Source: Actinomycetota bacterium
GTDB taxonomy: Bacteria; Actinomycetota; Aquicultoria; SKW223
DNA: 49,669 nucleotides
Assembly (NCBI GenBank): GCA_026417515.1
Contig: JAOADC010000066.1
Span: 1 to 49,669 of the forward strand
Direction: 5' to 3'
Below, piece after piece: positions 1,845 through 46,499 of the stretch. The notes beneath the pieces were generated by a model, which worked only from the letters and a program-made list of their open reading frames with translations, had not been told where the DNA came from and did not search any database. The position numbers were made by a program, and so were the translations under genes. The stretch's first letter is position 1, and the number at the start of each line of letters is the position of its first letter.

Positions 1845-2885
1845 ATGAGTGATCTACTCGATCCAAAATTACAACAAGAAAGCGATATAAATGAAGAGAG
1901 CCTTTTAAGACCAAGAAAGTTTTCTGAATTTGTAGGTCAGAAAAACATAAAAAGTGCTCTTGAAATATTTATTGTGGCTGCCAAGGAAAGAGGAGAGCCA
2001 CTTGACCATATCCTTCTTTCTGGTCCCCCTGGTCTTGGAAAAACTACATTGGCTCAGATTATTGCCAATGAAATGGGAGTTGGTATCAGGATAACATCTG
2101 GACCTGCTCTTGAGAGATCATCTGACATTGCGGCGATTTTAACATCCCTAAGCGAAAACTCTGTTCTTTTCATAGACGAGATACATCGTTTACCCAGACC
2201 TGTCGAGGAAGTACTTTACGCAGCGCTTGAAGATTTCAAAATAGATATTGTTATAGGAAAAGGTCCTGGTGCGAGAACAATAAGGCTGGATTTACCAAAG
2301 TTTACTTTAGTTGGTGCAACAACCCGCTCAGGAATGTTGACAGCACCGTTGAGAGACAGGTTTGGATTTACTGCAAGGCTAGATTTTTACAAAACAGAAG
2401 AACTTAAGGAGATCGTTCTGCGTTCTGCTAGTCTGCTGCTGTGTGAAATTGAAGAGGACGCTGCACTAGAAATTGCAAGAAGATCTCGGGGAACTCCAAG
2501 AATTGCTAACCGATTACTAAAAAGAGTACGAGACTATGTTCAGGTAAAGCATAGGGGTCTAATTACGGTTGAAAAGTGTAAGGAAGCGCTTGATTTCTTA
2601 AATGTGGATAATGAAGGACTCGATGATGTTGATAGAAAGCTTTTGAAAATTATGATTGAGAATTATAGAGGCAGACCTGTAGGAATAAATGCACTCGCAA
2701 ATGCTATAGGCGAAGAGGCTGCCACCATTGAAGATGTCTATGAGCCTTTTCTCATTCAATCAGGCTTCTTAGTCCGAACTCAACGAGGAAGAATGCCAAC
2801 TAAAAAAGCTTACCTACATCTGGGATACCAATATGTTGAGAATGAAAGCCCCCCTCTTTTTAAAAGCGATGATGAAAGTCAGTAA
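1845..2885 (+). CDS. ruvB: Holliday junction DNA helicase RuvB
   Basis: [44 protein letters not shown]. Confidence 0.98.
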
Positions 2886-2890
2886 ATCAT

Positions 2891-3961
2891 TCAGTACACA
2901 ACATTTCTTATTGGATGCAGAAAAAGCGGCGAACTTCTCCAGCAAGGATAATAACCATAGTTGTAGAGTTCTAATTGCCTATTGATAATTGCTGCGAGAA
3001 GCATCTTTTGTTTTACGCTTTCACCCAAGGTATTTAGATGTTCGACTAGGAACCTGTAAAGTATTTCAAGCGAGCTCATTTCTCCATTATTAGAAGGCAG
3101 CGCAAGACATCCTTTAGAAGAATTCTTTAAGGCTGCTTCGTTTATTACTTCATCTAGCGCCTCCTTGAATTTACCAATTACAATCGGCCTTGAAATCCCC
3201 TTAGCATATGGGCACAAGGCAAGGTATATTTTTGAACGAGACTTAAAAATATAGGCCGTATGCGAAAGAGCCGGACAGCGACATGAAAAGGCCCAGGAGA
3301 TTTCGACTGGATTTTCATATAGAGGATAGATTGAAGACCTTAAGAAGGATATTCTATGCAATAGCAATTCTGAAAGAAGGCAGATTGACTCCTTTGCATT
3401 TTCCAAATTTTCTTCAGGTGCCTCTTTCATAAGTGTAGAGAGTCTGAAATAGCTGGCACCTTTTTGGACTGCGAAGTCGAATACATCTCCTATTTCTGAT
3501 CTGTTGATTTCATTGAGAGTCATTGAAATACCAAAAAAACTCTTTTTTTGCGAAAGTTTTTCAACAGTTCCAAGGATGTTTCTATAGGCGCTTCGTTTTC
3601 CCTTGATAATCTCAAGAACTTCAGGTTCAAGGGATTCGATGCTAACTCTTACCTGTGCAAGGTTTGGAAAACTCAATATCTCATCCAGTTGTTTTTCTGA
3701 TTTATCTGGACATGAGGTAAACAAACTTACAAAAACTCTTTCTTCAAGGCAGATATTTAATATTTCAACTATTGAAGGGTGAAGCAAAGGCTCACCACCG
3801 GTGAGAAAAACATCTGTTAGACCCAATTTCTTTGATTCCCTGATTATCCAAGTTATTTCTTCCAGCGATAACTCTGAATCAGGTATCGATTTCTCCTTTC
3901 TACAGTAAACACACTTATAATTGCAAGATGAAGTTAAATCAATCGTCAGCGCCTTGAGCAT
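2891..3961 (-). CDS. Radical SAM enzyme (356 aa) with atypical Cys-containing C-terminus; second maturase of putative RiPP cluster
   Basis: CNYKCVYC (CxxxCxxC), TGGEPLLHP; GGAGGT SD; ATG 1 nt after the stop of the upstream rSAM gene. Confidence 0.88.
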   Translation of the reverse strand: MLKALTIDLTSSCNYKCVYCRKEKSIPDSELSLEEITWIIRESKKLGLTDVFLTGGEPLLHPSIVEILNICLEERVFVSLFTSCPDKSEKQLDEILSFPNLAQVRVSIESLEPEVLEIIKGKRSAYRNILGTVEKLSQKKSFFGISMTLNEINRSEIGDVFDFAVQKGASYFRLSTLMKEAPEENLENAKESICLLSELLLHRISFLRSSIYPLYENPVEISWAFSCRCPALSHTAYIFKSRSKIYLALCPYAKGISRPIVIGKFKEALDEVINEAALKNSSKGCLALPSNNGEMSSLEILYRFLVEHLNTLGESVKQKMLLAAIINRQLELYNYGYYPCWRSSPLFLHPIRNVVY

Positions 3962-3962
3962 C

Positions 3963-5342
3963 TTACGACCTCCAACTAAAACCCTTTTTGTTCAGCCCAC
4001 ACTCTGAGTTTTCTGATGCTTTCATAAGCATACGTTTAAGGCAACCATTGCAGTAACTGAAGTTTTTGCATCTTTCGCATCCCAAAGAAGAAGGGGATTC
4101 AACATCTGAAAATACTCCAAGATTCTTTTCGGAAAGAAGGTGCTCGAGATCTTCTGAAAAAATATTGCCAAAAGTAAAGCTTCTATCAAACATCACACAT
4201 GGTCTTATGTTTCCTTCAGGACATATTGCTATGGTTTTTGTTCCTGCTCCACAACCAAAGTCAAAGATTTCTTTCAAAGTAGGTTCAGGCAGGACAAAAA
4301 CCTTATCTGGATAAATAGATTTTAGTTTCATAAATTCAATATCAAAGCGGGCCCAGTCGCTATCGTCTTCAATAAAGATTCGAGAGTTTAATGCCCTGCC
4401 TTCCGGATTAACAGGAGCAGCTGCAAATATGGAAGCACCATTTTCAAATGCCAGTTCTGCAGTTGGTAGAATATCATTAAGGTTTTCTCTTGAAACATTC
4501 ATTGATACTCTTACAGGGACTGAAGCAGCTTCCAAAAGCCTCAATGCTCTTAAAGCCTTTTCAAAGGATCCTTTCATCCCTACAAACCAGTCGTGAAAAG
4601 AACTCTTATAGGAATTTAAAGTGATGCTTACAAAAACTTTGGTTTCGTACTTGTTCAGATTGCTCAATAGAGAAACTTTCTGTTCATCGAGAAGTGTTCC
4701 ATTTGTTATCACTGATACCAGATCAAAATACTCTGCTGCCAGGGAAAGCATTTCATCAAAATAAGGATGCAAGAGAGGTTCTCCTCCGGTGAACTCAACA
4801 ACCAGTGTGCCTTCAAGTGACAGGTTTTCAGCCATCCTGAAGAAATTCTCTTTATTCATAAATTGATTATTTCCTGGACCAGACTCTCTGTAACAATGAA
4901 CACACCTTTGATTGCATGAATCAGTAAGCTCCAGGAATAGATGGAGGGGTACGAAGTAATCTCTTGAACCTCCAAAAGTTGGAAAACTTGAAGAATGCAG
5001 TGGCTCGTATGCGTAATCAATGATGCCTTCTTGAAGCAACCAATCAAGAAAATAGTAAACTTTATTTTCTGGAATTCGGTAGACATTCTTAAGAACCTTA
5101 AGAATAGTTTTAAGAGGTGTTCTTCCATCACATGAAAAGATTATCTCCTCGTCAGTATGGTCAATTTTTTTCGAAATATACGAGCGGAAGTTTGTTTTAG
5201 TTGAATTCTTTCCTGGATGGAAAAGCCATGAATCTCTTGGTGTTGTGTGAATATGACAGTCGCTTGTTACGAAAGGATAAACCTTTTCAGGCTTGATTTC
5301 ATAAAAACTCTGAATCCGTTTGTTTGAATGAAGACCCCTCAT
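3963..5342 (-). CDS. AlbA/ThnB-like radical SAM/SPASM peptide maturase with N-terminal PqqD-like RRE (459 aa)
   Basis: True start ATG 5342 with AAGGAGG SD; RRE-like CDGRTPLKTIL...FLDWLLQEGII; CNQRCVHC; TGGEPLLHP; SPASM CGAG...GNIRPC...GNI...CERC...YCNGC...C. Confidence 0.9.
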   Translation of the reverse strand: MRGLHSNKRIQSFYEIKPEKVYPFVTSDCHIHTTPRDSWLFHPGKNSTKTNFRSYISKKIDHTDEEIIFSCDGRTPLKTILKVLKNVYRIPENKVYYFLDWLLQEGIIDYAYEPLHSSSFPTFGGSRDYFVPLHLFLELTDSCNQRCVHCYRESGPGNNQFMNKENFFRMAENLSLEGTLVVEFTGGEPLLHPYFDEMLSLAAEYFDLVSVITNGTLLDEQKVSLLSNLNKYETKVFVSITLNSYKSSFHDWFVGMKGSFEKALRALRLLEAASVPVRVSMNVSRENLNDILPTAELAFENGASIFAAAPVNPEGRALNSRIFIEDDSDWARFDIEFMKLKSIYPDKVFVLPEPTLKEIFDFGCGAGTKTIAICPEGNIRPCVMFDRSFTFGNIFSEDLEHLLSEKNLGVFSDVESPSSLGCERCKNFSYCNGCLKRMLMKASENSECGLNKKGFSWRS

Positions 5343-5365
5343 TCGTACCCCTCCTTTTTTATTTT

Positions 5366-5485
5366 TTACCAGGCTGTTAGGCCTGCGACAGAAAGGGAAG
5401 AAGTTGCTGCATATCTGGTTCCACACCAGACTGCTGCGAGCGAGCATGCAGCGCAAGCAGCACAACCCGTGCACCATGCAGGCAT
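5366..5485 (-). CDS. Putative sactipeptide-type RiPP precursor, 39 aa: MPAWCTGCAACAACSLAAVWCGTRYAATSSLSVAGLTAW
   Basis: Hand-translated; SD GAGGGGGTGA 5 nt before ATG; CxxCxxCxxC; ends 23 nt before the rSAM/SPASM start; not in the ORF track. Confidence 0.85.
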   Translation of the reverse strand: MPAWCTGCAACAACSLAAVWCGTRYAATSSLSVAGLTAW

Positions 5486-5621
5486 TTTAATCACCCCCTC
5501 TTTGTAATGGGTTTAAAAAAAGAATAGAGGAGCGTTAAAGTGTTGAAAATAAAGACAAGATATTAAATGAGTGAACAAAATTTCCTAATATGAGTGATTT
5601 ATCCTCTAGGAAAGGATTCAG

Positions 5622-6104
5622 TTATTCTTGATCGATATAGATTTCTTCAGCATCAGCGTTGTAACCTAAAAGTTCTGCAAACCTACCCCAGTCAATTATG
5701 ACATTAAGCAGTTTCTCGGCGTCTTCGTGCGTTAACTCTTCTTCGAATAATTCAGTAACCTTTTCGCGATCAGCCATAAGGTCCTTGTTTGTATGGAGGA
5801 ACTTTAAAAGGTCCTTAAATATTTTCACTTTTTTCAATCTTTCTTTAAAAATAAGTTTTCTTTCATTGATGTCAGCGTCAATAAACTTTTTACCAATTTC
5901 AGTTAGGATTATGTCTCCATCTTCTATCCTCACAAAACCAAGTATTTCTGCTGCATCAACTATGGGAGAAAACTCGTCAATATCCATATTGAGCATTTTT
6001 GCCAATTCAAAAAGATCTTCCTTTTGAGATTTAAAATCGTTTAAGAACTCCAGAAGCCCAATAATTTCACCAATAGTGGCTTTAGGCAGGGGCTCAATAG
6101 CCAT
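5622..6104 (-). CDS. Stand-alone AAA-associated (NitT/TauT ABC C-terminal-type) domain protein
   Basis: LP.ATIGEIIGLLE...DL..LA..L.MDID...PIVDAAEILGF...IDWGRFAELLGY pattern, normally the C-terminal domain of NitT/TauT ATPases. Confidence 0.8.
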   Translation of the reverse strand: MAIEPLPKATIGEIIGLLEFLNDFKSQKEDLFELAKMLNMDIDEFSPIVDAAEILGFVRIEDGDIILTEIGKKFIDADINERKLIFKERLKKVKIFKDLLKFLHTNKDLMADREKVTELFEEELTHEDAEKLLNVIIDWGRFAELLGYNADAEEIYIDQE

Positions 6105-6134
6105 TACAGATGTCTCACCTCTTCATCTAGAATT

Positions 6135-6896
6135 TTAAAGTATACGCGCATAAACCTCGTCAACGATTTCTAAAAGTTCCTTCGACTTATATTTTCTTGG
6201 TCTTGGCAATGGTATTTTAACCTGTCCAATTGTCTTTCCTGGTTTTTCTGAGACAAGAATAACACGATCGCTCATATAAACAGCTTCTTCAATCGAGTTA
6301 GTAACCATTAATATGCTTAGTAAATTAAACGATTGATCCTGCCAAATATCAAGAATTTCCTCTTGAAGATTTCTGGCTGAAAGGATGTCCAGATTTGAAA
6401 AGGGTTCGTCTAATAGCAATAACTCAGGCTGCACAGCGAGGGCTCTTGCAATACCGACTCGTTGCTTCATGCCTCTTGAAAGTTCTCTCGGATATGCTTC
6501 TTCAAATCCCTCTAAACCTACTTTATCGATGAAAAACTCGCTTATTCTCACTGCTTCCTTTTTGGGAATACCCTTAGCTTCAAGAGGAAGAATAATGTTC
6601 TCAAGTACAGTAAGCCAGGGTATGAGGGCAAAGTTCTGAAAAACAATGGAAACTTTTTCGTTGTGACCGGTTACTTCTTCTCCAGCGTAATACACTTTTC
6701 CATCTGTTGGCTTTTCAAGACCAGAGATGATTCTGAGCAGAGTGCTCTTTCCAGAGTCTGAGGGCCCAACAAGTGATACGAACTCGTTCCTGTAGACAGA
6801 AAAATTCATATCTTTTATTACGATATATTCTTTACCACCTTCAAAAAATTTCTTTTCAACATGCTCTACTTTTAATAGAGGAACTCTTCTTGGCAA
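6135..6896 (-). CDS. NitT/TauT-family ABC transporter ATP-binding protein with variant motifs
   Basis: GPSDSGKST, FQNFALIPW, LSRGMKQR, LLLLDEPF; H-loop reads VTN. Confidence 0.9.
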   Translation of the reverse strand: MPRRVPLLKVEHVEKKFFEGGKEYIVIKDMNFSVYRNEFVSLVGPSDSGKSTLLRIISGLEKPTDGKVYYAGEEVTGHNEKVSIVFQNFALIPWLTVLENIILPLEAKGIPKKEAVRISEFFIDKVGLEGFEEAYPRELSRGMKQRVGIARALAVQPELLLLDEPFSNLDILSARNLQEEILDIWQDQSFNLLSILMVTNSIEEAVYMSDRVILVSEKPGKTIGQVKIPLPRPRKYKSKELLEIVDEVYARIL

Positions 6897-6899
6897 TTT

Positions 6900-8627
6900 C
6901 TACTCCAGATCGAGAGAATATTTTTTTTCGGCGTAATCATAAAGTTTTTGCCAGATTAGGTTGTTTAAAAGAATTATAACAGTAACCAGAGCAGCCAGAC
7001 AAAGTGTTAGTAGTGTGGTGTCGCCTTTGATGATAGCAGCATAGTCAATCAAATAGCCTATACCATTGACTTTGTAAACCTTGTGGTTGAAAACAGAAAA
7101 CTCAGCAACTACTAAAGCGTTCCATCCTGCTCCAAAAGCAGCAAAAGAACCGGTTACTAATCCAGGAAAAGATGCTGGCAAGACAAGTTTACGAAGGATA
7201 AAAAACTTTGACTTGGAAAAGAGGTGAATTGGTTCTTTAAGTTCTCTTGGTATAAGCATAATACGGGACGCAGGTGGGAAAATCATATACCAAAACATTG
7301 TCGAAAAGAGTACAAAGAAGGCTGCCAGCTCCATCGAATGCTTGAATTTAGAACCTATGGCAATTGATAGAATGAGTGGTTTTAAGGCGGTCCCAGGTAT
7401 TGAAGATAGGATTCTAAAAATAGTCAAAAGCCCCTCTGATGTTTTTGGGCTTCCGAAGTAAAGAATTGATGAGATGATTGATAACAAAAGTAAGCAAAAA
7501 ATGTAAACTGAAACCAAACGAATAAAGGAAAAGAAAATAAATGATGGAATATTTCGAGCTTCTAGAGGGAACGGTTGGGTTAAAATGTAAATTAGAAACT
7601 TACCAAGAACAAAAATCAGGTAGGCAAGAAAACCAAAGAATAATATTTTTACAATTAGCGATAGCAATCTTTTTAACTTCTTTGATGCCTGGATTTTTGA
7701 AAAACGGGAGTAAAGTATTTCAGTAAGAGTGGTTTTCTGAATCCTTTCCTTTAATTCTTCTTCAAATCCACGTCTTATTGGAGAGAAGAATTGAATTAAA
7801 TCTTTAAACTTTGATAGAACATAATTTTCAGGAGCTTCTTCTTCGTAGGGCATCATTTGAAAAGAGAACTTTTTTGACCAGCTGGTTAAAGGTTCCCAAA
7901 CAAAGATGCTCATTGCAAGAACAGTGATGATTATGGCAAGAAATCCGCCAAGAACACCAAAATAATCGCCCTTTTCAGAGGAAGTCCAGAGAATCTGGCC
8001 TATTCCTGGAAGATTGAACTGCTTGGCACCAATTGCAAAAACTTCAGAAGACATAAGAAAGAACCAACTGTTTCCCCATGAGACATTGGAGTTAAAGATG
8101 AGAGAAGGGATTGTTGCTGGGATATAAACCTTTTTTAAAGCAAGCCAGCCCCTAATATTGTAGGCACGTAATAATCTATCAACATCTTTTGGCATAACTT
8201 TTAGTGATTCGTAGACACCAAAAATCATATTCCAAGCCTGAGATGTAAAAATTAGAAATATCGAAGCAAGTTCTATGCCTATGCGTTCCCCTCTAAAAAG
8301 AGCAACAAAGATGCCTATTGCAGCTGGAAAGAATCCAACCACAGGTACGCTCTGCATAATATCAAGGAAGGGCAAGAGTACTCTTTCAACACGTTTGTTT
8401 CTGGCCATCCAAAAACCAAGTGCTATGGCAGCGATGAGTGAAAATACATAAGATGCGGCAATCCTTAGAATTGAGTAACTTGTATATGTTAAAAGTTGGA
8501 AGAAATCGTAAGGCGCTCTCCTGAATATGTAAAAAGAAACGACGACGAAAGCGCTCAATGAGAAACCAAAAAAAACATATCTCAAAATACTTGATTGGCG
8601 CAGATTAAAAGGAAGTCTTCCAAGCAT
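6900..8627 (-). CDS. NitT/TauT-family ABC transporter permease with duplicated membrane domains
   Basis: LDIMQSVPVVGF, FTSQAWNMIFG, SWGNSWFF..SE, GAGWNALVVAE; about 12 hydrophobic segments. Confidence 0.85.
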   Translation of the reverse strand: MLGRLPFNLRQSSILRYVFFGFSLSAFVVVSFYIFRRAPYDFFQLLTYTSYSILRIAASYVFSLIAAIALGFWMARNKRVERVLLPFLDIMQSVPVVGFFPAAIGIFVALFRGERIGIELASIFLIFTSQAWNMIFGVYESLKVMPKDVDRLLRAYNIRGWLALKKVYIPATIPSLIFNSNVSWGNSWFFLMSSEVFAIGAKQFNLPGIGQILWTSSEKGDYFGVLGGFLAIIITVLAMSIFVWEPLTSWSKKFSFQMMPYEEEAPENYVLSKFKDLIQFFSPIRRGFEEELKERIQKTTLTEILYSRFSKIQASKKLKRLLSLIVKILFFGFLAYLIFVLGKFLIYILTQPFPLEARNIPSFIFFSFIRLVSVYIFCLLLLSIISSILYFGSPKTSEGLLTIFRILSSIPGTALKPLILSIAIGSKFKHSMELAAFFVLFSTMFWYMIFPPASRIMLIPRELKEPIHLFSKSKFFILRKLVLPASFPGLVTGSFAAFGAGWNALVVAEFSVFNHKVYKVNGIGYLIDYAAIIKGDTTLLTLCLAALVTVIILLNNLIWQKLYDYAEKKYSLDLE

Positions 8628-10881: not shown

Positions 10882-11625
10882 ATGACTAAGGTAAGCACTT
10901 CAAAGAATCGGAAGATTGAAGCCATTCTTCTTGGCACATTTGTTTTCATTTCAATGTTTCTTCTCGTTCTACTCGCTAAAAACATTTCTGGAATTAGACC
11001 TATAAGGCAGAACAAGGACGCGCTTATCTCCAGGATTAGAGAACTCGAACAAGAAAGAGCAAAATATAAAAAGACTATTGAAGAATTAAATAAGCAGATT
11101 GGAGAATTGGAGCGCAAAACTGCTTCTTCTGACAGAAGAGTTAAGGAATTGAAGAGACAGCTCGATTTGCTAAGAGAAGAGGTTGGAATGACCGCAATAA
11201 TTGGCAAAGGTGTTGAGGTAACTCTAAAAGATGCAGAGGTTTCGGGTGGTTTGATTGAAGAAGAACAGGCAGTGGTGCACGATTCTGATCTGAGGCTTTT
11301 AGTCAATGGTCTTTTTCTTGGCGGTGCAAGGGCTGTTTCGATAAATGGTGAAAGAATTACCTCAGTCTCTTCAATCAGGTGCGTAGGACCAACCATACTT
11401 GTAAACAGCAAAAGAATATCCTCGCCTTTTGTAGTAAAAGCAATAGGAGATCCTGAATCATTAATTGATGGATTATATGAAGAGCCAACGCTTAATTACT
11501 ATATAACACAATTGTTTCCAGAGATAGGAATAGGTTTTTCTGTAAAGAAAAAGGATGACATAAGAATTCCAGCATACAAGGGGAACCTTAGTTTCAGCAA
11601 AAATTTAGTAAGGGTGGCGAAGTAA
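10882..11625 (+). CDS. DUF881 family protein
   Basis: N-terminal TM, coiled coil, G.GVEVTL.D, VHDSDL..LVN.L..GGA.AVSINGER, CVGPTILVN, AIGDP. Confidence 0.88.
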   Translation: MTKVSTSKNRKIEAILLGTFVFISMFLLVLLAKNISGIRPIRQNKDALISRIRELEQERAKYKKTIEELNKQIGELERKTASSDRRVKELKRQLDLLREEVGMTAIIGKGVEVTLKDAEVSGGLIEEEQAVVHDSDLRLLVNGLFLGGARAVSINGERITSVSSIRCVGPTILVNSKRISSPFVVKAIGDPESLIDGLYEEPTLNYYITQLFPEIGIGFSVKKKDDIRIPAYKGNLSFSKNLVRVAK

Positions 11626-11984
11626 TGATCTGGATGTCGATTTTAGCAGGAGTGACTGCAGGAGTACTATTAGGAGTATTTGTAACTCTCGAAATCCCTG
11701 CTGTTATTGCCAGGTATGTATCGATTGCTCTTCTTGCATCCTTTGACACTCTTATAGGAGGTTTAAAATCTTATCTTAAAAAAGAGTTCGATGAATGGAT
11801 TTTCGTGTCTGGATTCCTGGCTAACTCCTTGCTTGCTGCTTTTATATCCTATCTCGGTGATAGACTTGGAATAGAACTATACCTTGCTGTTCTACTTGTT
11901 TTTGGAATGAGGATATTTCAAAATCTCGCAGAACTCAGGCATGCCTTGATTCTTAAGTTAAGAAGGGTTAAGAAGAATAAATGA
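11625..11984 (+). CDS. DUF1290 / small basic protein (Sbp) family membrane protein
   Basis: YVSIALLASFDTLIGG...F.SGFLANSLLAA...GDRLG.ELYLA...FGMRIFQNLA. Confidence 0.88.
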   Translation: MIWMSILAGVTAGVLLGVFVTLEIPAVIARYVSIALLASFDTLIGGLKSYLKKEFDEWIFVSGFLANSLLAAFISYLGDRLGIELYLAVLLVFGMRIFQNLAELRHALILKLRRVKKNK

Positions 11985-12649
11985 AGATCAGGTGGGATAT
12001 TGTAATTCTTACTTTTTTTATAACTTCTTTGGTGGTTGGTTTCTTTTTAACCGTTCAGCTAAGGGTTTTTGGAAGTAAGGGTGCTTTGGAAGCGTTATCA
12101 ATGAGCGATCTTACGACCCTTTACAATGACTTAAATACAGAAGTTATTGAATTGAAAGCCTATGTGCAGGAACTGAAAATAAGAGCAAATGAGTATTCTT
12201 CAATAACTGGAAATAGAGAGCGCCTCTTAAAAACTATGAAAGAAGAGATTGAGATGCTTAGAGTTATTTCTGGAGCAGCATCTGTTGAGGGCAAAGGAGT
12301 TGAGGTAACGGTTTTTGATGACAAGAATAACTTGCAATCTTTGGACCTGATTGATCTTGTGAATGAGTTGAGAGCAGCAGGTGCAATAGCGATAAGTGTA
12401 AATAACATAAGAATAATTTTTAACTCGAGTTTCTTAAAAACCAATCAGGGCTTTATAATAGACGGCATTGCAATTGGAGCACCATATACTGTTTCAGCAA
12501 TTGGTGATCCTGAAACTCTTTATTCATCATTAACATTTCCTGGAGGAGTGGCAAAATCGATTGATGCAATTGAAGGAGTTTCGGTATCTGTTGTGAAAAA
12601 GGACAGCATATTCATATCTTCAAAGAAGTCGGCAAAAAGTAAAAATTGA
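11981..12649 (+). CDS. DUF881 family protein
   Basis: G.GVEVTV.D, DLVNELRAAGA.AISVN, PY.VSAIGDP..L..SL.FPGG. Confidence 0.88.
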   Translation: MKIRWDIVILTFFITSLVVGFFLTVQLRVFGSKGALEALSMSDLTTLYNDLNTEVIELKAYVQELKIRANEYSSITGNRERLLKTMKEEIEMLRVISGAASVEGKGVEVTVFDDKNNLQSLDLIDLVNELRAAGAIAISVNNIRIIFNSSFLKTNQGFIIDGIAIGAPYTVSAIGDPETLYSSLTFPGGVAKSIDAIEGVSVSVVKKDSIFISSKKSAKSKN

Positions 12650-14451
12650 ATTTTGCTGGGAAATTTAAATTGAAGAAAATCGAAAGTTTCTTAAAAAATA
12701 GGTGGAAGACGGCATTTTTTGTATTTACCCTGCTTGTGTCAATTTTGGTTGCTATGCCGTTAGTTTTTTTCTTATCCGGTCGTTATCCAATGAGATTATC
12801 GGTAAATAGTTTAAACCTGGGACTTAAAAGCAAGGATCTTGTTAGAGAAGAAATCATCAAAGACTTTGAAAAAAAGAACGAGGAAAAGGTGGAACTTGTT
12901 ATTGAAGGTGTAAAGGTTAATATCAAACCTGAAAATACAGGAGTTTTACTTGATGCTAATAAAACGATTTATCGTTTAGAGTCTTTATACTTTAAGCCTG
13001 AAGGTTTGAATTGGTATTTTTCTCTACTAAGAGCGTTTTATTTTGGTGAGAGATTCTTACCAAGTCTACAGATAGACTTTCAAAAACTATCAGCGTTCAA
13101 AAGAGATATGGATGAAAAATTTGGCAAAACTCCTTTAAATGCAGTTGTTTTCATAGACGATAAAGGATCTCCAGTCTATAAGCCAGAAAAAAGTGGAAAA
13201 TTATTTAAAAAGGCAGATCTACTCGATGTTTTAAGACAGGCACTGATAACCGGAAAACCAATGGTTCTTAAGACTAAGACAGCGCTACCAAAAGTCTTGA
13301 TGGAAGATGTAAAAAGATTGGTGAATGAGCAATTACCGATTTTCTCTCAAAAGAGCCTGATTCTTACCTACGATGATGTGGAGTATGAAATAAAAGGAAA
13401 AGATTTAATTAAAACTCTTGAATCAGGTGTTGTGGATGGAAAGCTGACATTCATTATAAGGCCAGATAAACTTAAAGAAGTAGCAAGAAACTTTTTCGAA
13501 TCACTGGAAAAAGAACCGAAAAATGCATCTTTTGCTGTGGTCGAGGGAAGGGTTGTTATAGTTCCTGAGAAACTGGGTGTAGCAGTTGACGCAACAAGAA
13601 CGGCTGAAATTGCTTCACGTCAACTTTTAATTTCTCAAAGAGCAACAGTCGAAGTCTATCTTCGTGAAGTTTATCCAGAGATTACATCAAAAGAAGCAAA
13701 AACATTTGGCATAAAAGAAATGATCTCTTCTTTCACAACAGAATACAATCCCAATCAGACAGCAAGAGTAACAAACATCAAACTTCTTGCCAAACTTTTA
13801 GATGGGCAGTTGATTGCCCCAGGTGAAGTTTTTTCTTTCAATCAAAGAATCGGACCAAGGACTTTAGAGAGAGGATTCAAGCTTGCCCCAACAATAGTCA
13901 ATGGAAGACTGGTCGATACCGCTGGTGGAGGGGCTTGTCAGGTTGGGACTACACTTTTTAACACTGCCTTTTTTGCCGGTCTTAAAATAATTGAACGTCA
14001 TAACCACAGTTTTCTTATTAACCACTATCCAGCAGGAAGGGATGCCACAGTATCATATGGTGGATATGATTTGAAGTTTAAGAATGATTACAGAAGCTGG
14101 ATACTTATTAAAGCCTATGCAACCCAGAGCAAAATAACAATAAGTTTTTACGGAACATCAGAAAATCGAAAAGTAAGGTTTGAAACAACAGGTCCATATG
14201 ATTTAAAGCCATACAGGATAGAAGAGGTGAAAGACTCTACTCTTGAGGTTGGAAAAAGAAAAATTGAAGACAAGGGGATAATGGGTCAAAGATATATCGT
14301 TGTGCGCAAAGTTTACGATGCTTCAGGTAGACTACTCTATAAAGATATCTTTAAGAGCAAATATAGACCAAAGACCGAGATAGTGCGTGTCGGGACAAAG
14401 CCTGTAAGCAAGAATTTTTCAACCACAGAAACCACGCAATTAACGAACTGA
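12646..14451 (+). CDS. VanW-family protein with N-terminal TM/peptidoglycan-binding region and C-terminal G5-like domain
   Basis: PGEVFSFNQ.IG, GGGACQVGTTLFN, ERHNHS, GRDATV, C-terminal P...IVRVGTK. Confidence 0.85.
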   Translation: MNFAGKFKLKKIESFLKNRWKTAFFVFTLLVSILVAMPLVFFLSGRYPMRLSVNSLNLGLKSKDLVREEIIKDFEKKNEEKVELVIEGVKVNIKPENTGVLLDANKTIYRLESLYFKPEGLNWYFSLLRAFYFGERFLPSLQIDFQKLSAFKRDMDEKFGKTPLNAVVFIDDKGSPVYKPEKSGKLFKKADLLDVLRQALITGKPMVLKTKTALPKVLMEDVKRLVNEQLPIFSQKSLILTYDDVEYEIKGKDLIKTLESGVVDGKLTFIIRPDKLKEVARNFFESLEKEPKNASFAVVEGRVVIVPEKLGVAVDATRTAEIASRQLLISQRATVEVYLREVYPEITSKEAKTFGIKEMISSFTTEYNPNQTARVTNIKLLAKLLDGQLIAPGEVFSFNQRIGPRTLERGFKLAPTIVNGRLVDTAGGGACQVGTTLFNTAFFAGLKIIERHNHSFLINHYPAGRDATVSYGGYDLKFKNDYRSWILIKAYATQSKITISFYGTSENRKVRFETTGPYDLKPYRIEEVKDSTLEVGKRKIEDKGIMGQRYIVVRKVYDASGRLLYKDIFKSKYRPKTEIVRVGTKPVSKNFSTTETTQLTN

Positions 14452-43482: not shown

Positions 43483-44289
43483 ATGCGTAAGATAAATGAT
43501 TTGGACTTAAAAAAATGGAAGCAATATAAAGATATCATCACAGATAGCCTATGGATTTTTGAAGAAAGAGATAAATCTGGACCTCATAAAGGGGATTATC
43601 ATGGCAATTTCGTACCCCAAATCCCTTATCAATTAATTAGAAGGTTTACTAAAAAGGATGATGTCGTCTTAGATGCTTTTTTAGGAAGCGGAACGACATT
43701 AATTGAATGCAGAAGATTGCAAAGAAATGGAATTGGAATTGAGTTATTACCAGAAATTGCTGAGTTAGCCAAAGAAAGAATAAATCAAAAATCTTTATTT
43801 GACGGAAGAGTCTTTACAGAAGTTTTAGTAGGAGATAGCACAAAAATTGAAACGAGAAATAAAGTAAATGAAATTTTAAAATTTTATAATAGGAAAAATG
43901 TTCAATTAATTATTCTTCATCCTCCATACCACGATATTATAAAATTTAGTGATAATCCGAATGATCTAAGCAATGCAGGATCAGTTGAAGATTTCTTAAA
44001 TCTATTTGATAAAGTTGTCACCAACTTCATAGATTTGCTCGAAATAAATCATTATTTGGCAGTAATCATTGGAGATAAATATGAAAAATCTGAGTGGATT
44101 CCACTAGGATTTATGATATTGCAACGTTTACTTATCAGAGATGATTTGAAATTGAAGAGTATAGTAGTTAAAAATATGGTCAATAATCGTGCAAAAAGAA
44201 ACCAAGAAAACCTTTGGAGATATAGGGCTTTAGTTGGAGGGTTTTATATATTTAAACATGAGTATATCTTGTTGCTTCAGAAAAAATAA
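43483..44289 (+). CDS. Amino (N4-C/N6-A) DNA methyltransferase
   Basis: YHGNFVPQIP, VLDAFLGSGTT (motif I), GIE, ILHPPY (motif IV variant). Confidence 0.85.
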   Translation: MRKINDLDLKKWKQYKDIITDSLWIFEERDKSGPHKGDYHGNFVPQIPYQLIRRFTKKDDVVLDAFLGSGTTLIECRRLQRNGIGIELLPEIAELAKERINQKSLFDGRVFTEVLVGDSTKIETRNKVNEILKFYNRKNVQLIILHPPYHDIIKFSDNPNDLSNAGSVEDFLNLFDKVVTNFIDLLEINHYLAVIIGDKYEKSEWIPLGFMILQRLLIRDDLKLKSIVVKNMVNNRAKRNQENLWRYRALVGGFYIFKHEYILLLQKK

Positions 44290-45122
44290 TGAATAAGTTG
44301 ACACAAAAAGAATTAAAGAAACTCAAACTAGAATGCATGAAAAAAGATCATTTGATGCAATTAGCCAAAGATTCTGGCATCGATTCAAGAGGTAGTAGTT
44401 CAGAACTAATAGAAAAACTTATTGATATTTCCATGGATTTGATCGATGGTTTTATGAAAAAGAGATATTTGGATTTAATAAAAGAAAGACAAGAAAAAAT
44501 TATTTCTGATGAAGAATTAAAACAGGAGTTATTAAAAGTTAAGAACTACAAATGGGGCACGGTTCAAGGTGGATTAGATCAAATGATCCAAAGTCAGTAC
44601 GTAAGAAAATTTGCAAGATATGATGAACTTATAAATGAAGTAAGAAATAGATTTCAAGAAGAAATAAAAAGCTATTTGATTGCTACTTGGTATAATCATT
44701 GGACAACTGTCTTAATAGAAGATCATATTAGCCAGCATCCAAGAGTCATCCCAACGTTAAAACATAAACTAGGAATAGATATATTTTTCGATGATTATCC
44801 TTTCGATCTAAAGATAACTTATTTACGAAAAGATCATAGCTTAAACAGAAATTTGAAAAATCCTAAGGAAATAATTAAATGGCTTTATGAGAATCAAGGG
44901 GAACAAAGATTTAGTCCTAATAATAGAATATATATATTGCTACTTGATAAAAAAAATGTAGAAGAGAGTTGGAAATTGAAAAGTGATTTCGATTTTCTAT
45001 TCAACGAAATCGATAATTTTTTTGATAGCGCTAAAGTCACTGAAGAAGATCAGGTGACATTCTCTTTTAAAAATAGAGAATACACTTCTTTGGCAAAACT
45101 TCTTTTTATTTCAAAGGGTTGA
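44289..45122 (+). CDS. Putative restriction endonuclease (PD-(D/E)xK-like) with SAP-like N-terminus
   Basis: TAATG coupling to the MTase; E...GIDIFFDDYPFDLK motif; very AT-rich. Confidence 0.55.
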   Translation: MNKLTQKELKKLKLECMKKDHLMQLAKDSGIDSRGSSSELIEKLIDISMDLIDGFMKKRYLDLIKERQEKIISDEELKQELLKVKNYKWGTVQGGLDQMIQSQYVRKFARYDELINEVRNRFQEEIKSYLIATWYNHWTTVLIEDHISQHPRVIPTLKHKLGIDIFFDDYPFDLKITYLRKDHSLNRNLKNPKEIIKWLYENQGEQRFSPNNRIYILLLDKKNVEESWKLKSDFDFLFNEIDNFFDSAKVTEEDQVTFSFKNREYTSLAKLLFISKG

Positions 45123-45197
45123 AGCTTTTATTATTAAAATTTTAACATTTAGGAATGATTAACGATATATTATAAGACTTAAGAATCGTAGGCATTT

Positions 45198-46499
45198 ATG
45201 CATATTAATTTTAGAATTGATAATACAGCAAAGATTGCTGCGCTGCACACGGCTCTCATACTTATCATCACTCTTTTTTATTCGCTTTTATCAGGTCCTG
45301 TTTCAAATATCGTGGGATTAAAAAATCTACTTCCTGGTTTTGAGACCCTATCCAGGCAGGCGAGGATAGTAATTGTCTACCACACCATAGCTGTACCTTT
45401 TATAAGTCTTCTTGCTATTCTTATCCTGAATACTTTGAAAATTGAAAATCGTTTAAAAGATCGTTCTTGTAGCGCTCTCACTTTTGGATCAATAATGTCT
45501 TCTCTATCCGGTTTGATTTTTGCCTATTTCTCTGGTGGAGTGGTTCTACATGGACTGTTCGTAACAGGACTTGCAATCGTCTTCTATGGTGGACTTCAGT
45601 TTTTTTATGTGGTGCTAAATCCTAAGACTGAAGGATTTGGGCTAAACATAGAAAGAATCTCTCTTGCAGTACTGGTTGCATCAGTTCTTGTTTCAGCTGG
45701 CATTGGTGCATATATAGGTTCCCATTTTGGTTCAGGATTTAAGGCAATTCTTGCTGAAGACATAATAAGAAGAAGCCATAACTTACTTGAAAGAGCGTTA
45801 ATTTCTCATCTTCATATAATGGTTGCTCTGGTTGCAGCATCAGTGCTTTTCTTGCTCACAAGACATTTTGAATACTACAAGCAGAAAATCAAATCTTTTT
45901 ATTATCTTTTTCTAATTGGCGTTCTTGTCACATCATTTTCAACCTGGGCAGTTGTTATTAAATCGCTTGAGAAGCAAGCACATAAAATCATCAATATCGG
46001 GGCAGTGCTTTTAATTTTTGCCTCCTTTGTTTATGCCTTTCACGCTTTAAAGAAATACCTGACAAAAAAGCAATCAAATGTATTTGAAATGTTATCTGTT
46101 TACCACCTTTTTCTTGTTAATTTGAGCGTCACAGCCCCTGGAGTATATGTTGCCATCAATCTGCACTATTTTCGATCAGATAAAGCAATATCCATTGAGA
46201 GAGCCTTTGCTGTTGGCCACTGGCACATTCTATCTGCAACTTGTGCTCTGATTTTATTGGCAATCTTTTTTGATATGGTAGGTTTCAGAAAGAACAAATT
46301 ATTTAGTTCGCTTTCAGTTATTTCCAATGTTATGCTTTCCTTTTCTTTCGTATTTGCAAACCTTTATATGTTTACACTGAAAAAAGTTTGGATGAATGCA
46401 CTTGAATTATTTCTAGCGCCTGGTTTTCTTATTCTAGTTTTTCTGGTTCTTTATGCCATTTTTAAAACTTATTTTGATTATTCGAAGGAATCCAGTTAA
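45198..46499 (+). CDS. Hypothetical ~12-TM membrane protein with intramembrane His motifs
   Basis: Many hydrophobic segments; VYHT, LHG, SHLH, AHK, GHWH. Confidence 0.65.
   Translation: MHINFRIDNTAKIAALHTALILIITLFYSLLSGPVSNIVGLKNLLPGFETLSRQARIVIVYHTIAVPFISLLAILILNTLKIENRLKDRSCSALTFGSIMSSLSGLIFAYFSGGVVLHGLFVTGLAIVFYGGLQFFYVVLNPKTEGFGLNIERISLAVLVASVLVSAGIGAYIGSHFGSGFKAILAEDIIRRSHNLLERALISHLHIMVALVAASVLFLLTRHFEYYKQKIKSFYYLFLIGVLVTSFSTWAVVIKSLEKQAHKIINIGAVLLIFASFVYAFHALKKYLTKKQSNVFEMLSVYHLFLVNLSVTAPGVYVAINLHYFRSDKAISIERAFAVGHWHILSATCALILLAIFFDMVGFRKNKLFSSLSVISNVMLSFSFVFANLYMFTLKKVWMNALELFLAPGFLILVFLVLYAIFKTYFDYSKESS

What the first reader, a model, noticed from the sequence alone, without database searches (positions are those of the whole stretch)
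2891..5485. Compact, apparently undescribed sactipeptide-like RiPP cluster: precursor plus two radical SAM enzymes
Seen: three tightly packed minus-strand genes, each with an SD: a 39-aa Cys-rich peptide, a 459-aa RRE-rSAM-SPASM enzyme 23 nt later, and a 356-aa rSAM 1 nt after that. Known: AlbA (subtilosin A) and ThnB (thurincin H) install Cys-S-to-alpha-carbon thioethers, and characterised sactipeptides come mostly from Firmicutes. Inference: a new thioether RiPP system in a low-GC actinobacterial-type genome, carrying an extra tailoring enzyme and lacking the usual protease and dedicated export/immunity genes.
Basis: partly seen in the sequence, partly recalled or inferred. Interest (0 to 1): 0.92.

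Follow-up and report, generated by a model that had tools for sequence, protein, structure and literature searches.

The report
Leaderless thioether-peptide cassette, two radical SAM enzymes
Three tightly coupled genes encode a very conserved 39-residue, five-cysteine peptide with no leader sequence and two radical SAM enzymes, which is most likely an unusual relative of the thurincin H and subtilosin type of cross-linked peptides kept by a whole lineage of small-genome bacteria.

Summary
Three minus-strand genes sit at the stated coordinates, each with a Shine-Dalgarno site: a 39-aa peptide, a 459-aa radical SAM (rSAM) enzyme with RRE (peptide-recognition) and SPASM domains (rSAM1), and a 356-aa rSAM enzyme (rSAM2).

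The peptide gene is real. It recurs in 3 of 3 other loci that cover that position, at 69-95% identity, while the enzymes are only 27-58% identical. pN/pS is 0.04-0.23.

rSAM1 is closest to AlbA and SkfB but is an orthologue of neither. Leadered five-Cys relatives exist in Elusimicrobia MAGs.

- The peptide has no leader. The first Cys is residue 5, and in one relative an in-frame stop lies two codons upstream of the ATG.
- rSAM2 belongs to a tiny orphan family: 9 representatives at E<=1e-30 among 1.84 billion proteins. It has no RRE and carries a new four-Cys C-terminal domain.
- The cassette sits at one fixed chromosomal site, between an ABC operon and ruvB, in a family-level clade spanning 38-61% GC.

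This is most likely a thurincin-H-like thioether peptide, with an unknown second modification and a role that may not be a classical bacteriocin. The chemistry is untested. The "actinobacterial" label is not supported. I rate it a new variant of a known kind.

The parts
5366..5485 (-). Precursor or substrate peptide gene, 39 aa plus stop. It has five Cys (C5, C8, C11, C14, C21), three invariant Trp, and no leader.
   Evidence: Conserved in L002, L034 and L036. pN/pS 0.04-0.23. In-frame stops lie 2-30 codons upstream.
5492..5500 (-). Shine-Dalgarno site of the peptide gene (GAGGGGGTG, 6 nt before the ATG). The GTG once listed as an alternative start is part of this site.
   Evidence: The same AGGAGGTG-type site sits at the same distance in all 4 loci.
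5486..5621 (-). 136-nt intergenic region upstream of the peptide gene, the likely promoter region. No consensus match was found.
   Evidence: The promoter scan gave no site here and no excess over shuffles.
3963..5342 (-). rSAM1: a 459-aa RRE-rSAM-SPASM peptide maturase (sactisynthase-like).
   Evidence: Pfam Radical_SAM 5.1e-23 and SPASM 7.3e-06. NCBIfam AlbA 178.6 bits, below the 850 cut-off. PDB best match SkfB at 9.8e-27. AF2 pLDDT 85.1. VIA SkfB Z 32.5.
4968..5276 (-). N-terminal RRE-like domain of rSAM1, residues about 23-125 (four strands, then three helices).
   Evidence: Secondary structure and pLDDT of about 90. Aligned with the N-terminal domains of SkfB and SuiB. A conserved CHIHTTPxxSWL block among orthologues.
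3999..4253 (-). SPASM domain of rSAM1 with seven conserved Cys (C364, C382, C422, C425, C431, C434, C448).
   Evidence: C448 is nearly invariant; the other six are invariant in 21 sequences.
3969..3973 (-). Shine-Dalgarno site (GGAGG) of rSAM2, inside the last codons of rSAM1. This indicates translational coupling.
2891..3961 (-). rSAM2: a 356-aa radical SAM enzyme with no RRE. CxxxCxxC lies at residues 13-20. It belongs to an orphan family.
2927..3289 (-). C-terminal domain of rSAM2, residues about 225-345. It has four invariant Cys (C229, C250, C285, C340) and the invariant motif PCWRSSP. It is a probable twitch-like auxiliary Fe-S site.
   Evidence: Alignment of 13 homologues. No Pfam SPASM hit. 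Fold neighbours are SuiB, PqqE, BlsE and SkfB at Z 19.6-20.8. Atlas features point to SPASM in 21 of 30 hits, a lead only.

Best explanation
This is a three-gene operon for a ribosomally made, radical-SAM-matured peptide.

Substrate. The 39-aa gene product is the substrate as a whole. It has no leader, so no leader protease is needed. At most the initiator Met is removed (inferred).

rSAM1. rSAM1 has an RRE, an rSAM core and a seven-Cys SPASM domain, and is a distant AlbA/SkfB-type sactisynthase. It binds the peptide through determinants that must lie inside the mature sequence. It uses 5'-deoxyadenosyl radical chemistry to tie the Cys ladder C5-x2-C8-x2-C11-x2-C14 to residues in the C-terminal half. 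This is inferred to give a nested thioether hairpin like thurincin H, whose donors are Cys4, 7, 10 and 13. One register that fits is C14-W20, C11-T/S23, C8-A26 and C5-S/N29; this is a hypothesis.

rSAM2. rSAM2 is translationally coupled, has no RRE and carries one probable auxiliary cluster. It adds a second radical modification that the leadered single-enzyme relatives lack. Candidates are a link from the displaced fifth Cys (C21), a cross-link on the family-specific invariant Trp/Arg/Tyr residues, or an epimerisation.

Conservation and role. Because recognition and function share the same 39 residues, the peptide is far more conserved than its enzymes. The fixed locus, the lack of export or immunity genes and the lineage-wide retention suggest a role serving the producer rather than a strain-variable bacteriocin (inferred).

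Shown here: gene anatomy, domain content, conservation, co-occurrence and absence of a leader. Inferred: substrate relationship, thioether chemistry, topology, the reaction of rSAM2 and the biological role.
For: Anatomy and coupling.

rSAM1 identity:
- The best NCBIfam model is AlbA (1.4e-52, residues 57-439 against 35-416 of 442), then SkfB.
- The best solved relative is SkfB (Foldseek 2.2e-25, TMt 0.77; VIA Z 32.5, 361 aligned).
- Seven SPASM Cys are conserved in 21 sequences.

Leadered relatives: rSAM1 homologues of the same length (458-459 aa, 28-32% identity) in three Elusimicrobia MAG loci sit directly downstream of one or two 46-49-aa peptides. These have a 12-13-aa leader and five Cys spaced CxxCxxCxxCxxC, or x3 before the last Cys in one of the five peptides. 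The rSAM1 homologues are followed by ABC transporter genes.

Thurincin H comparison: it has a 40-aa precursor, a 31-aa product and links Cys4-Ser28, Cys7-Thr25, Cys10-Thr22 and Cys13-Asn19 (PMC8172795, passages read).

No leader: the first Cys is residue 5. The in-frame stop lies 9, 30, 5 and 2 codons upstream in the four loci, and the only upstream GTG lies inside the SD.

Peptide conservation: 37/39, 28/39 and 27/39 identical residues, against rSAM1 at 58, 35 and 38% and rSAM2 at 44, 39 and 27%. pN/pS is 0.04-0.23.

Co-occurrence:
- Peptide, rSAM1 and rSAM2 occur together in 4 of 4 loci examined (window, L002, L034, L036).
- 6 of 12 non-self rSAM2 homologues lie on contigs of the same length as an rSAM1 orthologue.
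- rSAM2 is rare: 13 full-length proteins, then a drop from 1.7e-43 to 2.2e-12. An exhaustive scan finds 9 representatives at E<=1e-30 of 1.84 billion.

Same site: the order ABC permease-ATPase-AAA_assoc_C | cassette | convergent ruvB appears in G000, G001, L034+L047 and L036/L035. GC runs from 0.38 to 0.61 and matches each flank.
Against: No chemistry was measured.

rSAM1 scores far below every curated equivalog cut-off (AlbA 178.6 against 850, SkfB 100.7 against 300). Its reaction is therefore extrapolated from distant relatives. Sequence alone does not separate sactisynthases from ranthipeptide or other SPASM maturases.

The peptide has no detectable sequence match to any solved sactipeptide. 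It has no match in NCBIfam or Pfam or among predicted proteins. The likeness to thurincin H is a Cys-spacing pattern only.

An RRE with no leader to bind is unexplained.

Only four peptide sequences are in hand, all from one family-level clade, so conservation partly reflects relatedness.

No expression evidence is available.
Confidence: 0.6

Rival explanations
1. The cassette and substrate are the same, but the chemistry differs. rSAM1 makes S-C-beta or S-C-gamma thioethers (a ranthipeptide), or the enzymes make C-C or C-N cross-links on the invariant Trp, Tyr or Arg residues rather than sactionine bridges.
For: rSAM1 also matches PapB (5.4e-20), WgkB (7.4e-21) and other SPASM maturases. Its fold neighbours include SuiB, a Lys-Trp cross-linker, and CteB. 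The peptide has three invariant Trp and invariant R24-Y25, which the leadered Elusimicrobia relatives lack. rSAM enzymes that link Trp to Arg exist (PMC11851443, search listing and start of abstract only).
Against: The top sequence and fold matches are sactisynthases: AlbA at 178.6 bits against PapB at 71.9, and SkfB at Z 32.5 against SuiB at 25.8. A four-step Cys ladder with 3-residue spacing in the N-terminal half is the thurincin H donor pattern. All five Cys are invariant.
Confidence: 0.22
2. The peptide is not a substrate. It is a small Cys-rich metal- or Fe-S-binding partner, a mini-ferredoxin-like electron donor or scaffold, for two rSAM enzymes that act on another molecule.
For: CxxCxxCxxC resembles cluster-binding motifs (recalled knowledge). 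The peptide is conserved over its whole length like a folded protein. There is no leader, protease or exporter.
Against: rSAM1 keeps an RRE-type domain, which is known for binding peptide substrates. Its nearest relatives sit beside classical leader-core precursors. The peptide is almost entirely Ala, Gly, Ser, Thr and hydrophobic residues with one charge, which is typical of sactibiotics and not of ferredoxins.
Confidence: 0.05
3. The 39-codon frame is a chance ORF in a GC-rich spacer or RNA element, and the two rSAM genes are unrelated housekeeping enzymes.
For: The ORF is short, and frames are open on both strands in the window.
Against: It is conserved in 4 of 4 loci with saturated synonymous change and pN/pS of 0.04-0.23. 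It is the only frame open in all four, and the SD sits at a fixed distance. There is no Rfam match. The enzymes occur only with it.
Confidence: 0.01

Closest known systems
Thurincin H system (ThnA precursor, ThnB sactisynthase) of Bacillus thuringiensis
   Same: Four Cys donors are spaced three apart near the N-terminus of a small, hydrophobic, nearly uncharged peptide. The maturase is an RRE-rSAM-SPASM enzyme (PMC8172795).
   Different: Thurincin H has a 9-aa leader, a protease (ThnP), an ABC transporter and three precursor copies. Here there is no leader, protease or exporter. There is one precursor copy, a fifth Cys and a second rSAM. No sequence homology to the peptide was detectable.
Subtilosin A maturase AlbA (NCBIfam NF012164) and SkfB (TIGR04403; PDB 6efn)
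   Same: These are the best sequence models and the best solved fold for rSAM1, aligned nearly end to end including the N-terminal domain.
   Different: Scores are far below the equivalog cut-offs (178.6 against 850 and 100.7 against 300), with about 20-22% identity to SkfB. rSAM1 has a full seven-Cys SPASM. That SkfB instead has a twitch domain is recalled, not tested here.
Thuricin CD (TrnC/TrnD)
   Same: Two rSAM enzymes are encoded together for thioether peptide maturation. There the two form a complex and act jointly (PMC12093266, abstract and passages).
   Different: TrnC and TrnD both carry N-terminal RRE-type domains, through which they bind each other, and they serve two precursors. 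Here rSAM2 has no N-terminal domain at all and there is one precursor.
Leadered five-Cys precursor clusters in Elusimicrobia MAGs (loci L014, L015, L016)
   Same: These are the nearest named-genome relatives of rSAM1 (28-32% identity, 458-459 aa). Their peptides also have five Cys and a hydrophobic C-terminal half.
   Different: They have 12-13-aa leaders, one or two precursor copies and ABC-type transporters, and no rSAM2. They have no Trp. As far as I could see, they are themselves uncharacterised.
SCIFF peptides with their rSAM maturase in Clostridia (recalled, not tested here)
   Same: A short Cys-rich peptide and its rSAM-SPASM maturase are kept lineage-wide, without export or immunity genes and with unknown function.
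   Different: In SCIFF the Cys cluster is C-terminal behind a long conserved leader, and there is a single enzyme. No NCBIfam SCIFF model matched the peptide.

Membership tests
Sactipeptide RiPP class | Ribosomal precursor with Cys donors encoded next to the maturase | tested here: met
   A 39-aa, five-Cys ORF lies 23 nt upstream of rSAM1 and is conserved in 4 of 4 loci.
Sactipeptide RiPP class | rSAM maturase with CxxxCxxC and a SPASM or twitch auxiliary-cluster domain | tested here: met
   Pfam Radical_SAM and SPASM. C143/C147/C150 plus seven SPASM Cys are conserved.
Sactipeptide RiPP class | N-terminal RRE in the maturase | tested here: met
   Pfam PqqD was not detected. The predicted N-terminal domain, at pLDDT about 90, aligns with the N-terminal domains of SkfB and SuiB. 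This rests on a structure prediction, not a measurement.
Sactipeptide RiPP class | N-terminal leader peptide that is recognised and then removed by a protease | tested here: not met
   The first Cys is residue 5. In-frame stops lie 2-30 codons upstream, with no usable start codon between them and the ATG. No protease gene lies in or beside the cassette.
Sactipeptide RiPP class | Cys sulfur to alpha-carbon thioether bonds in the product | not testable with these tools
   This needs mass spectrometry or NMR of the product.
AlbA equivalog (NF012164) | Score at or above the curated cut-off of 850 bits | tested here: not met
   178.6 bits. rSAM1 is a distant relative, not an orthologue.
SkfB equivalog (TIGR04403) | Score at or above the curated cut-off of 300 bits | tested here: not met
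   100.7 bits for rSAM1 and 64.3 bits for rSAM2.
SPASM domain (PF13186), asked of rSAM2 | Pfam match and the seven-Cys motif | tested here: not met
   There is no Pfam SPASM hit at E<=0.01. Only four invariant C-terminal Cys are present, with different spacing. The fold still aligns with SPASM and twitch enzymes to residue about 300-344, so it works like a twitch-type domain without being a member of the Pfam family.
Thuricin CD-type dual sactisynthase (TrnC/TrnD) | Both enzymes carry an N-terminal RRE-type domain that mediates the complex, and there are two precursors | tested here: not met
   The CxxxCxxC of rSAM2 starts at residue 13, so there is no N-terminal domain. There is one precursor gene (one match in G000).
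PQQ (PqqE) and mycofactocin (MftC) maturases | Score at or above the curated cut-off | tested here: not met
   rSAM1 scores 58.5 against 381 for PqqE and 87.6 against 265 for MftC.

The most novel reading that the evidence does not exclude
This is not a bacteriocin but a lineage-wide, vertically inherited 'housekeeping' RiPP. In this reading the whole 39-residue translation product is the core. An RRE-bearing maturase recognises the core itself, or its C-terminal half acting as an uncleaved follower. A previously unseen class of RRE-less rSAM enzyme with a new four-Cys auxiliary domain performs a reaction not yet described on peptides. The product would serve the producer, for example as a membrane-embedded, redox-active, metal-binding or signalling peptide, in streamlined 1.2-1.3 Mb genomes.
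Probability: 0.3. Interest if true: 0.82.

Novelty: new variant of a known kind. Interest (0 to 1): 0.62.

Why it matters
RiPP biosynthesis is built on the leader-core rule. The RRE domain holds a disposable leader while the enzyme works on a variable core.

Here an RRE-bearing, AlbA/SkfB-like enzyme is paired in four lineages with a peptide that has no leader at all. The peptide is as conserved as housekeeping proteins, while its enzymes drift. This offers a natural test case for leader-independent recognition by an RRE enzyme.

It could also give a minimal thioether-peptide system needing no protease. Three genes might suffice for heterologous production.

The second enzyme belongs to a family of about a dozen known sequences, with a new Cys-ligand arrangement and an unassigned reaction.

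Retention at one chromosomal site in very small genomes, without immunity or export genes, also raises a wider question. Some sactipeptide-like products may have a physiological role rather than an antibiotic one, as has long been asked for SCIFF peptides.

Tried and rejected
Chance ORF or RNA element. Rejected.

A longer precursor from an upstream start. Rejected. The GTG three codons upstream is part of the SD, and L036 has a stop two codons upstream.

The adjacent ABC system as a dedicated exporter. Rejected. It has BPD_transp_1 importer-type architecture. The same three-gene ABC operon exists in G002 and G005 without the cassette and away from ruvB.

Actinobacterial host. WhiB and Pup ligase were not found with these family searches in the 100%-complete genome, and neither were BamA or LpxC. 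The phylum was not resolved.

Peptide homologues among predicted proteins. None were found. Short ORFs are often not called, so this is weak evidence.

Peptide in 401 genomes sampled from the phylum. Only G000 matched strongly. There were 11 marginal hits at E 0.003-0.008, which I took as chance and did not inspect. G001 was not in that sample.

rSAM2 in the 48 genomes of the class. Only G000 and G001 matched at E<=1e-20.

Binding of rSAM1 to rSAM2 (complex prediction). No answer: score 0.00 and controls not run. This is no evidence either way.

Expression. The look-up of sequencing runs listed one DNA run, which may be the source sample, and no RNA holder.

Literature. Three full-text searches gave no paper describing a leaderless sactipeptide-type precursor or this cassette. 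That is three word searches, not proof of absence. The rSAM-RiPP compendium (PMC10288494, listing and start of abstract only) has supplementary lists that could contain this family. Supplements were closed and I did not see them.

Their peptides are therefore unknown.

The Atlas feature search of the rSAM2 C-terminus pointed to SPASM (21 of 30 hits). I treat this as a lead only.

Model coordinates are not exposed, so I could not check whether the four rSAM2 Cys cluster in space.
Full report
**What is there**

On the minus strand of the window lie three closely packed genes.
- A 39-codon ORF at 5366-5485.
- A 459-codon gene at 3963-5342. I call it rSAM1, for radical SAM (rSAM) enzyme 1.
- A 356-codon gene at 2891-3961. 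I call it rSAM2.

The peptide stop and the rSAM1 ATG are 23 nt apart. The rSAM1 stop and the rSAM2 ATG are 1 nt apart.

Each start has a Shine-Dalgarno site: GAGGGGGTG at 5492-5500, GGAGGGG at 5348-5354 and GGAGG at 3969-3973. The last lies inside the final codons of rSAM1, which implies translational coupling.

Upstream is a 136-nt spacer, then a same-strand ABC operon. Downstream, the stop codon of the convergent ruvB gene is only 5 nt from the rSAM2 stop.

**The peptide gene is real**

The same ORF is present in all three other loci that cover the position.
- L002, a contig of genome G001 in the same family: 28 of 39 residues identical.
- Metagenome locus L034: 37 of 39.
- Metagenome locus L036: 27 of 39.

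Twenty-four columns are invariant. They include M1, P2, W4, all five Cys (5, 8, 11, 14, 21), W20, G22, R24, Y25 and the C-terminal L-T-A-W.

Synonymous sites are near saturation (pS 0.65-0.93), while pN/pS is 0.04-0.23. This is the only one of six frames that stays open in all four sequences.

Rfam finds no RNA family there.

The ORF's GC of 0.57 in a 0.38 genome follows from its content of Ala, Gly, Cys and Trp.

**The main enzyme**

Pfam finds Radical_SAM (5.1e-23) and SPASM (7.3e-06) in rSAM1.

Among NCBIfam models the best is the subtilosin maturase AlbA: 1.4e-52 and 178.6 bits, aligned from residue 57 to 439. Next comes SkfB. Both score far below their equivalog cut-offs.

The best solved relative by sequence is SkfB at 9.8e-27.

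An AlphaFold2 model built on 21 homologues has pLDDT 85.1. Its best matches are as follows.

| Structure | Foldseek | VIA Z | Model range to chain range |
|---|---|---|---|
| SkfB | 2.2e-25, TMt 0.77 | 32.5 (361 residues aligned) | 27-440 to 12-392 |
| SuiB | not quoted | 25.8 | 23-452 to 2-432 |

Both alignments include the N-terminal domain, which is four strands followed by three helices at residues about 22-111.

The alignment shows the CxxxCxxC triad (C143, C147, C150). It also shows seven SPASM cysteines: C364, C382, C422, C425, C431, C434 and C448.

**Relatives with leaders**

A scan of one genome per species found rSAM1 homologues in three Elusimicrobia MAGs. They are the same length (458-459 aa) and 28-32% identical.

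Directly upstream of each lie one or two 46-49-aa peptides. These have a 12-13-residue leader, then five Cys spaced three apart (four before the last Cys in one peptide), then a hydrophobic tail. ABC transporter genes follow the rSAM1 homologue. There is no second rSAM.

These are classical leader-core clusters. They tie the rSAM1 clade to peptide maturation.

The donor spacing matches thurincin H. Its 31-residue product comes from a 40-residue precursor and is bridged Cys4-Ser28, Cys7-Thr25, Cys10-Thr22 and Cys13-Asn19 (PMC8172795, passages).

**No leader**

In the window's family the first Cys is residue 5. The frame is closed by a stop 9 codons upstream of the ATG in G000, 30 in L034, 5 in G001 and 2 in L036.

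The only alternative start is a GTG three codons upstream in three of the four loci. It sits inside the AAGGAGGTG-type ribosome-binding site.

The precursor therefore cannot carry an N-terminal leader. This explains why no protease gene is present, and it leaves the retained, well-conserved RRE without its usual ligand.

The simplest reading is that recognition determinants lie within the mature sequence. That would also explain the reversal of the usual pattern, in which the leader is conserved and the core varies. Here the peptide is 69-95% identical while rSAM1 is 35-58% and rSAM2 27-44% identical. In the same comparisons RuvB is 66-80% identical.

**The second enzyme**

rSAM2 starts directly with its CxxxCxxC motif (C13, C17, C20), so it has no RRE. 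Pfam sees only the radical SAM core.

A word-indexed search of 5.8 billion protein clusters found 13 full-length homologues, followed by a gap from 1.7e-43 to 2.2e-12. An exhaustive HMMER scan of 1.84 billion representatives found 9 at E<=1e-30.

Their alignment shows four further invariant Cys (C229, C250, C285, C340), a nearly invariant His234 and an invariant PCWRSSP motif near the C-terminus.

The model (pLDDT 84.6) aligns with SuiB, PqqE, BlsE, SkfB and anSME at Z 19-21, out to residues about 300-344. A language-model feature search of the C-terminal part returned mostly SPASM clusters, which I treat as a lead only.

I read this as a divergent twitch-like domain with one auxiliary cluster. 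Its reaction cannot be inferred.

Candidates follow from what distinguishes this family's peptide from the single-enzyme relatives: the displaced fifth Cys, three invariant Trp, and R24-Y25.

A precedent for two rSAM enzymes acting together on thioether peptides is TrnC/TrnD of thuricin CD (PMC12093266, abstract and passages). There, however, both partners have N-terminal domains through which they bind each other.

**Distribution and inheritance**

rSAM1 has 14 orthologues at 35-60% identity. Six of the 12 non-self rSAM2 homologues lie on contigs of exactly the same length as an rSAM1 orthologue. This is indirect evidence for co-occurrence, because the contigs could not be read.

In the 48 genomes of the class, only G000 and G001 have rSAM2.

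Gene order was examined in all four lineages: G000; G001, split over contigs C83 and C214; L034+L047; and L036/L035. In each the order is ABC permease, ATPase, AAA_assoc_C, peptide, rSAM1, rSAM2, then convergent ruvB-ruvA-ruvC-yebC.

Same-order and same-class relatives (G002, G005) have both flanking blocks. Their blocks lack the cassette and are not adjacent.

Cassette GC matches the flanks from 0.38 to 0.61. RuvB identities place all four lineages at about family distance.

This looks like long-term vertical retention rather than a mobile bacteriocin island.

**Host**

The genome is 1.25 Mb and scored 100% complete. The family searches found no WhiB, Pup ligase, BamA or LpxC. It is probably a monoderm, and the "actinobacterial" label is not supported. 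I did not resolve the phylum.

**Verdict**

This is a real, rare, apparently undescribed cassette. Its main enzyme and Cys ladder place it with thurincin H and subtilosin-type thioether peptides.

It fails one defining feature of the class, the leader. It also adds an orphan rSAM enzyme.

The chemistry, the topology, the role of rSAM2 and the biological function are inferences.

I rate it a new variant of a known kind with interest 0.62. It is still well above ordinary, because of the leaderless RRE pairing, the orphan enzyme and the housekeeping-like conservation.

Paper supplements were stated as closed and not requested.

Noticed in passing
window 5622-8627 (-): An ABC system is split into three genes: a fused double BPD_transp_1 permease (575 aa), an ATPase (253 aa) and a stand-alone 160-aa AAA_assoc_C (PF09821) protein. 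No substrate-binding protein gene is adjacent. The same three-gene unit exists in same-order and same-class relatives (G002, G005).
   Followed up: partly
window 2883-2893: The stop codons of the convergent ruvB (+) and rSAM2 (-) genes are 5 nt apart. That leaves no room for a terminator on either strand, and the scan found none there.
   Followed up: partly
L014 4572-4939, L015 4691-4837, L016 8-414: Three Elusimicrobia MAG loci carry one or two 46-49-aa precursors. These have a 12-13-aa leader and five Cys spaced three apart. Next to them lie a 458-459-aa RRE-rSAM-SPASM gene and ABC transporter genes. They look like uncharacterised thurincin-H-like clusters in a phylum not known for sactipeptides.
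   Followed up: partly
window 10882-14451 (+): A DUF881 - DUF1290 - DUF881 gene triplet is followed by a VanW / PG_binding_4 / G5 protein. This is a cell-envelope or division-type block.
   Followed up: no
G000 whole genome: Family searches found no WhiB, Pup ligase, Omp85/BamA or LpxC in a 1.25-Mb genome scored 100% complete. It is probably a monoderm with a strongly reduced genome. The phylum is not resolved.
   Followed up: partly
window 44001-46000: GC dips to 0.319 against about 0.36-0.41 elsewhere in the window.
   Followed up: no
L018 5001-6236: A named Enterococcus genome holds a full-length rSAM1 relative, RRE region included, at 25% identity. No obvious adjacent CxxC-ladder peptide was seen in a quick ORF screen.
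   Followed up: no
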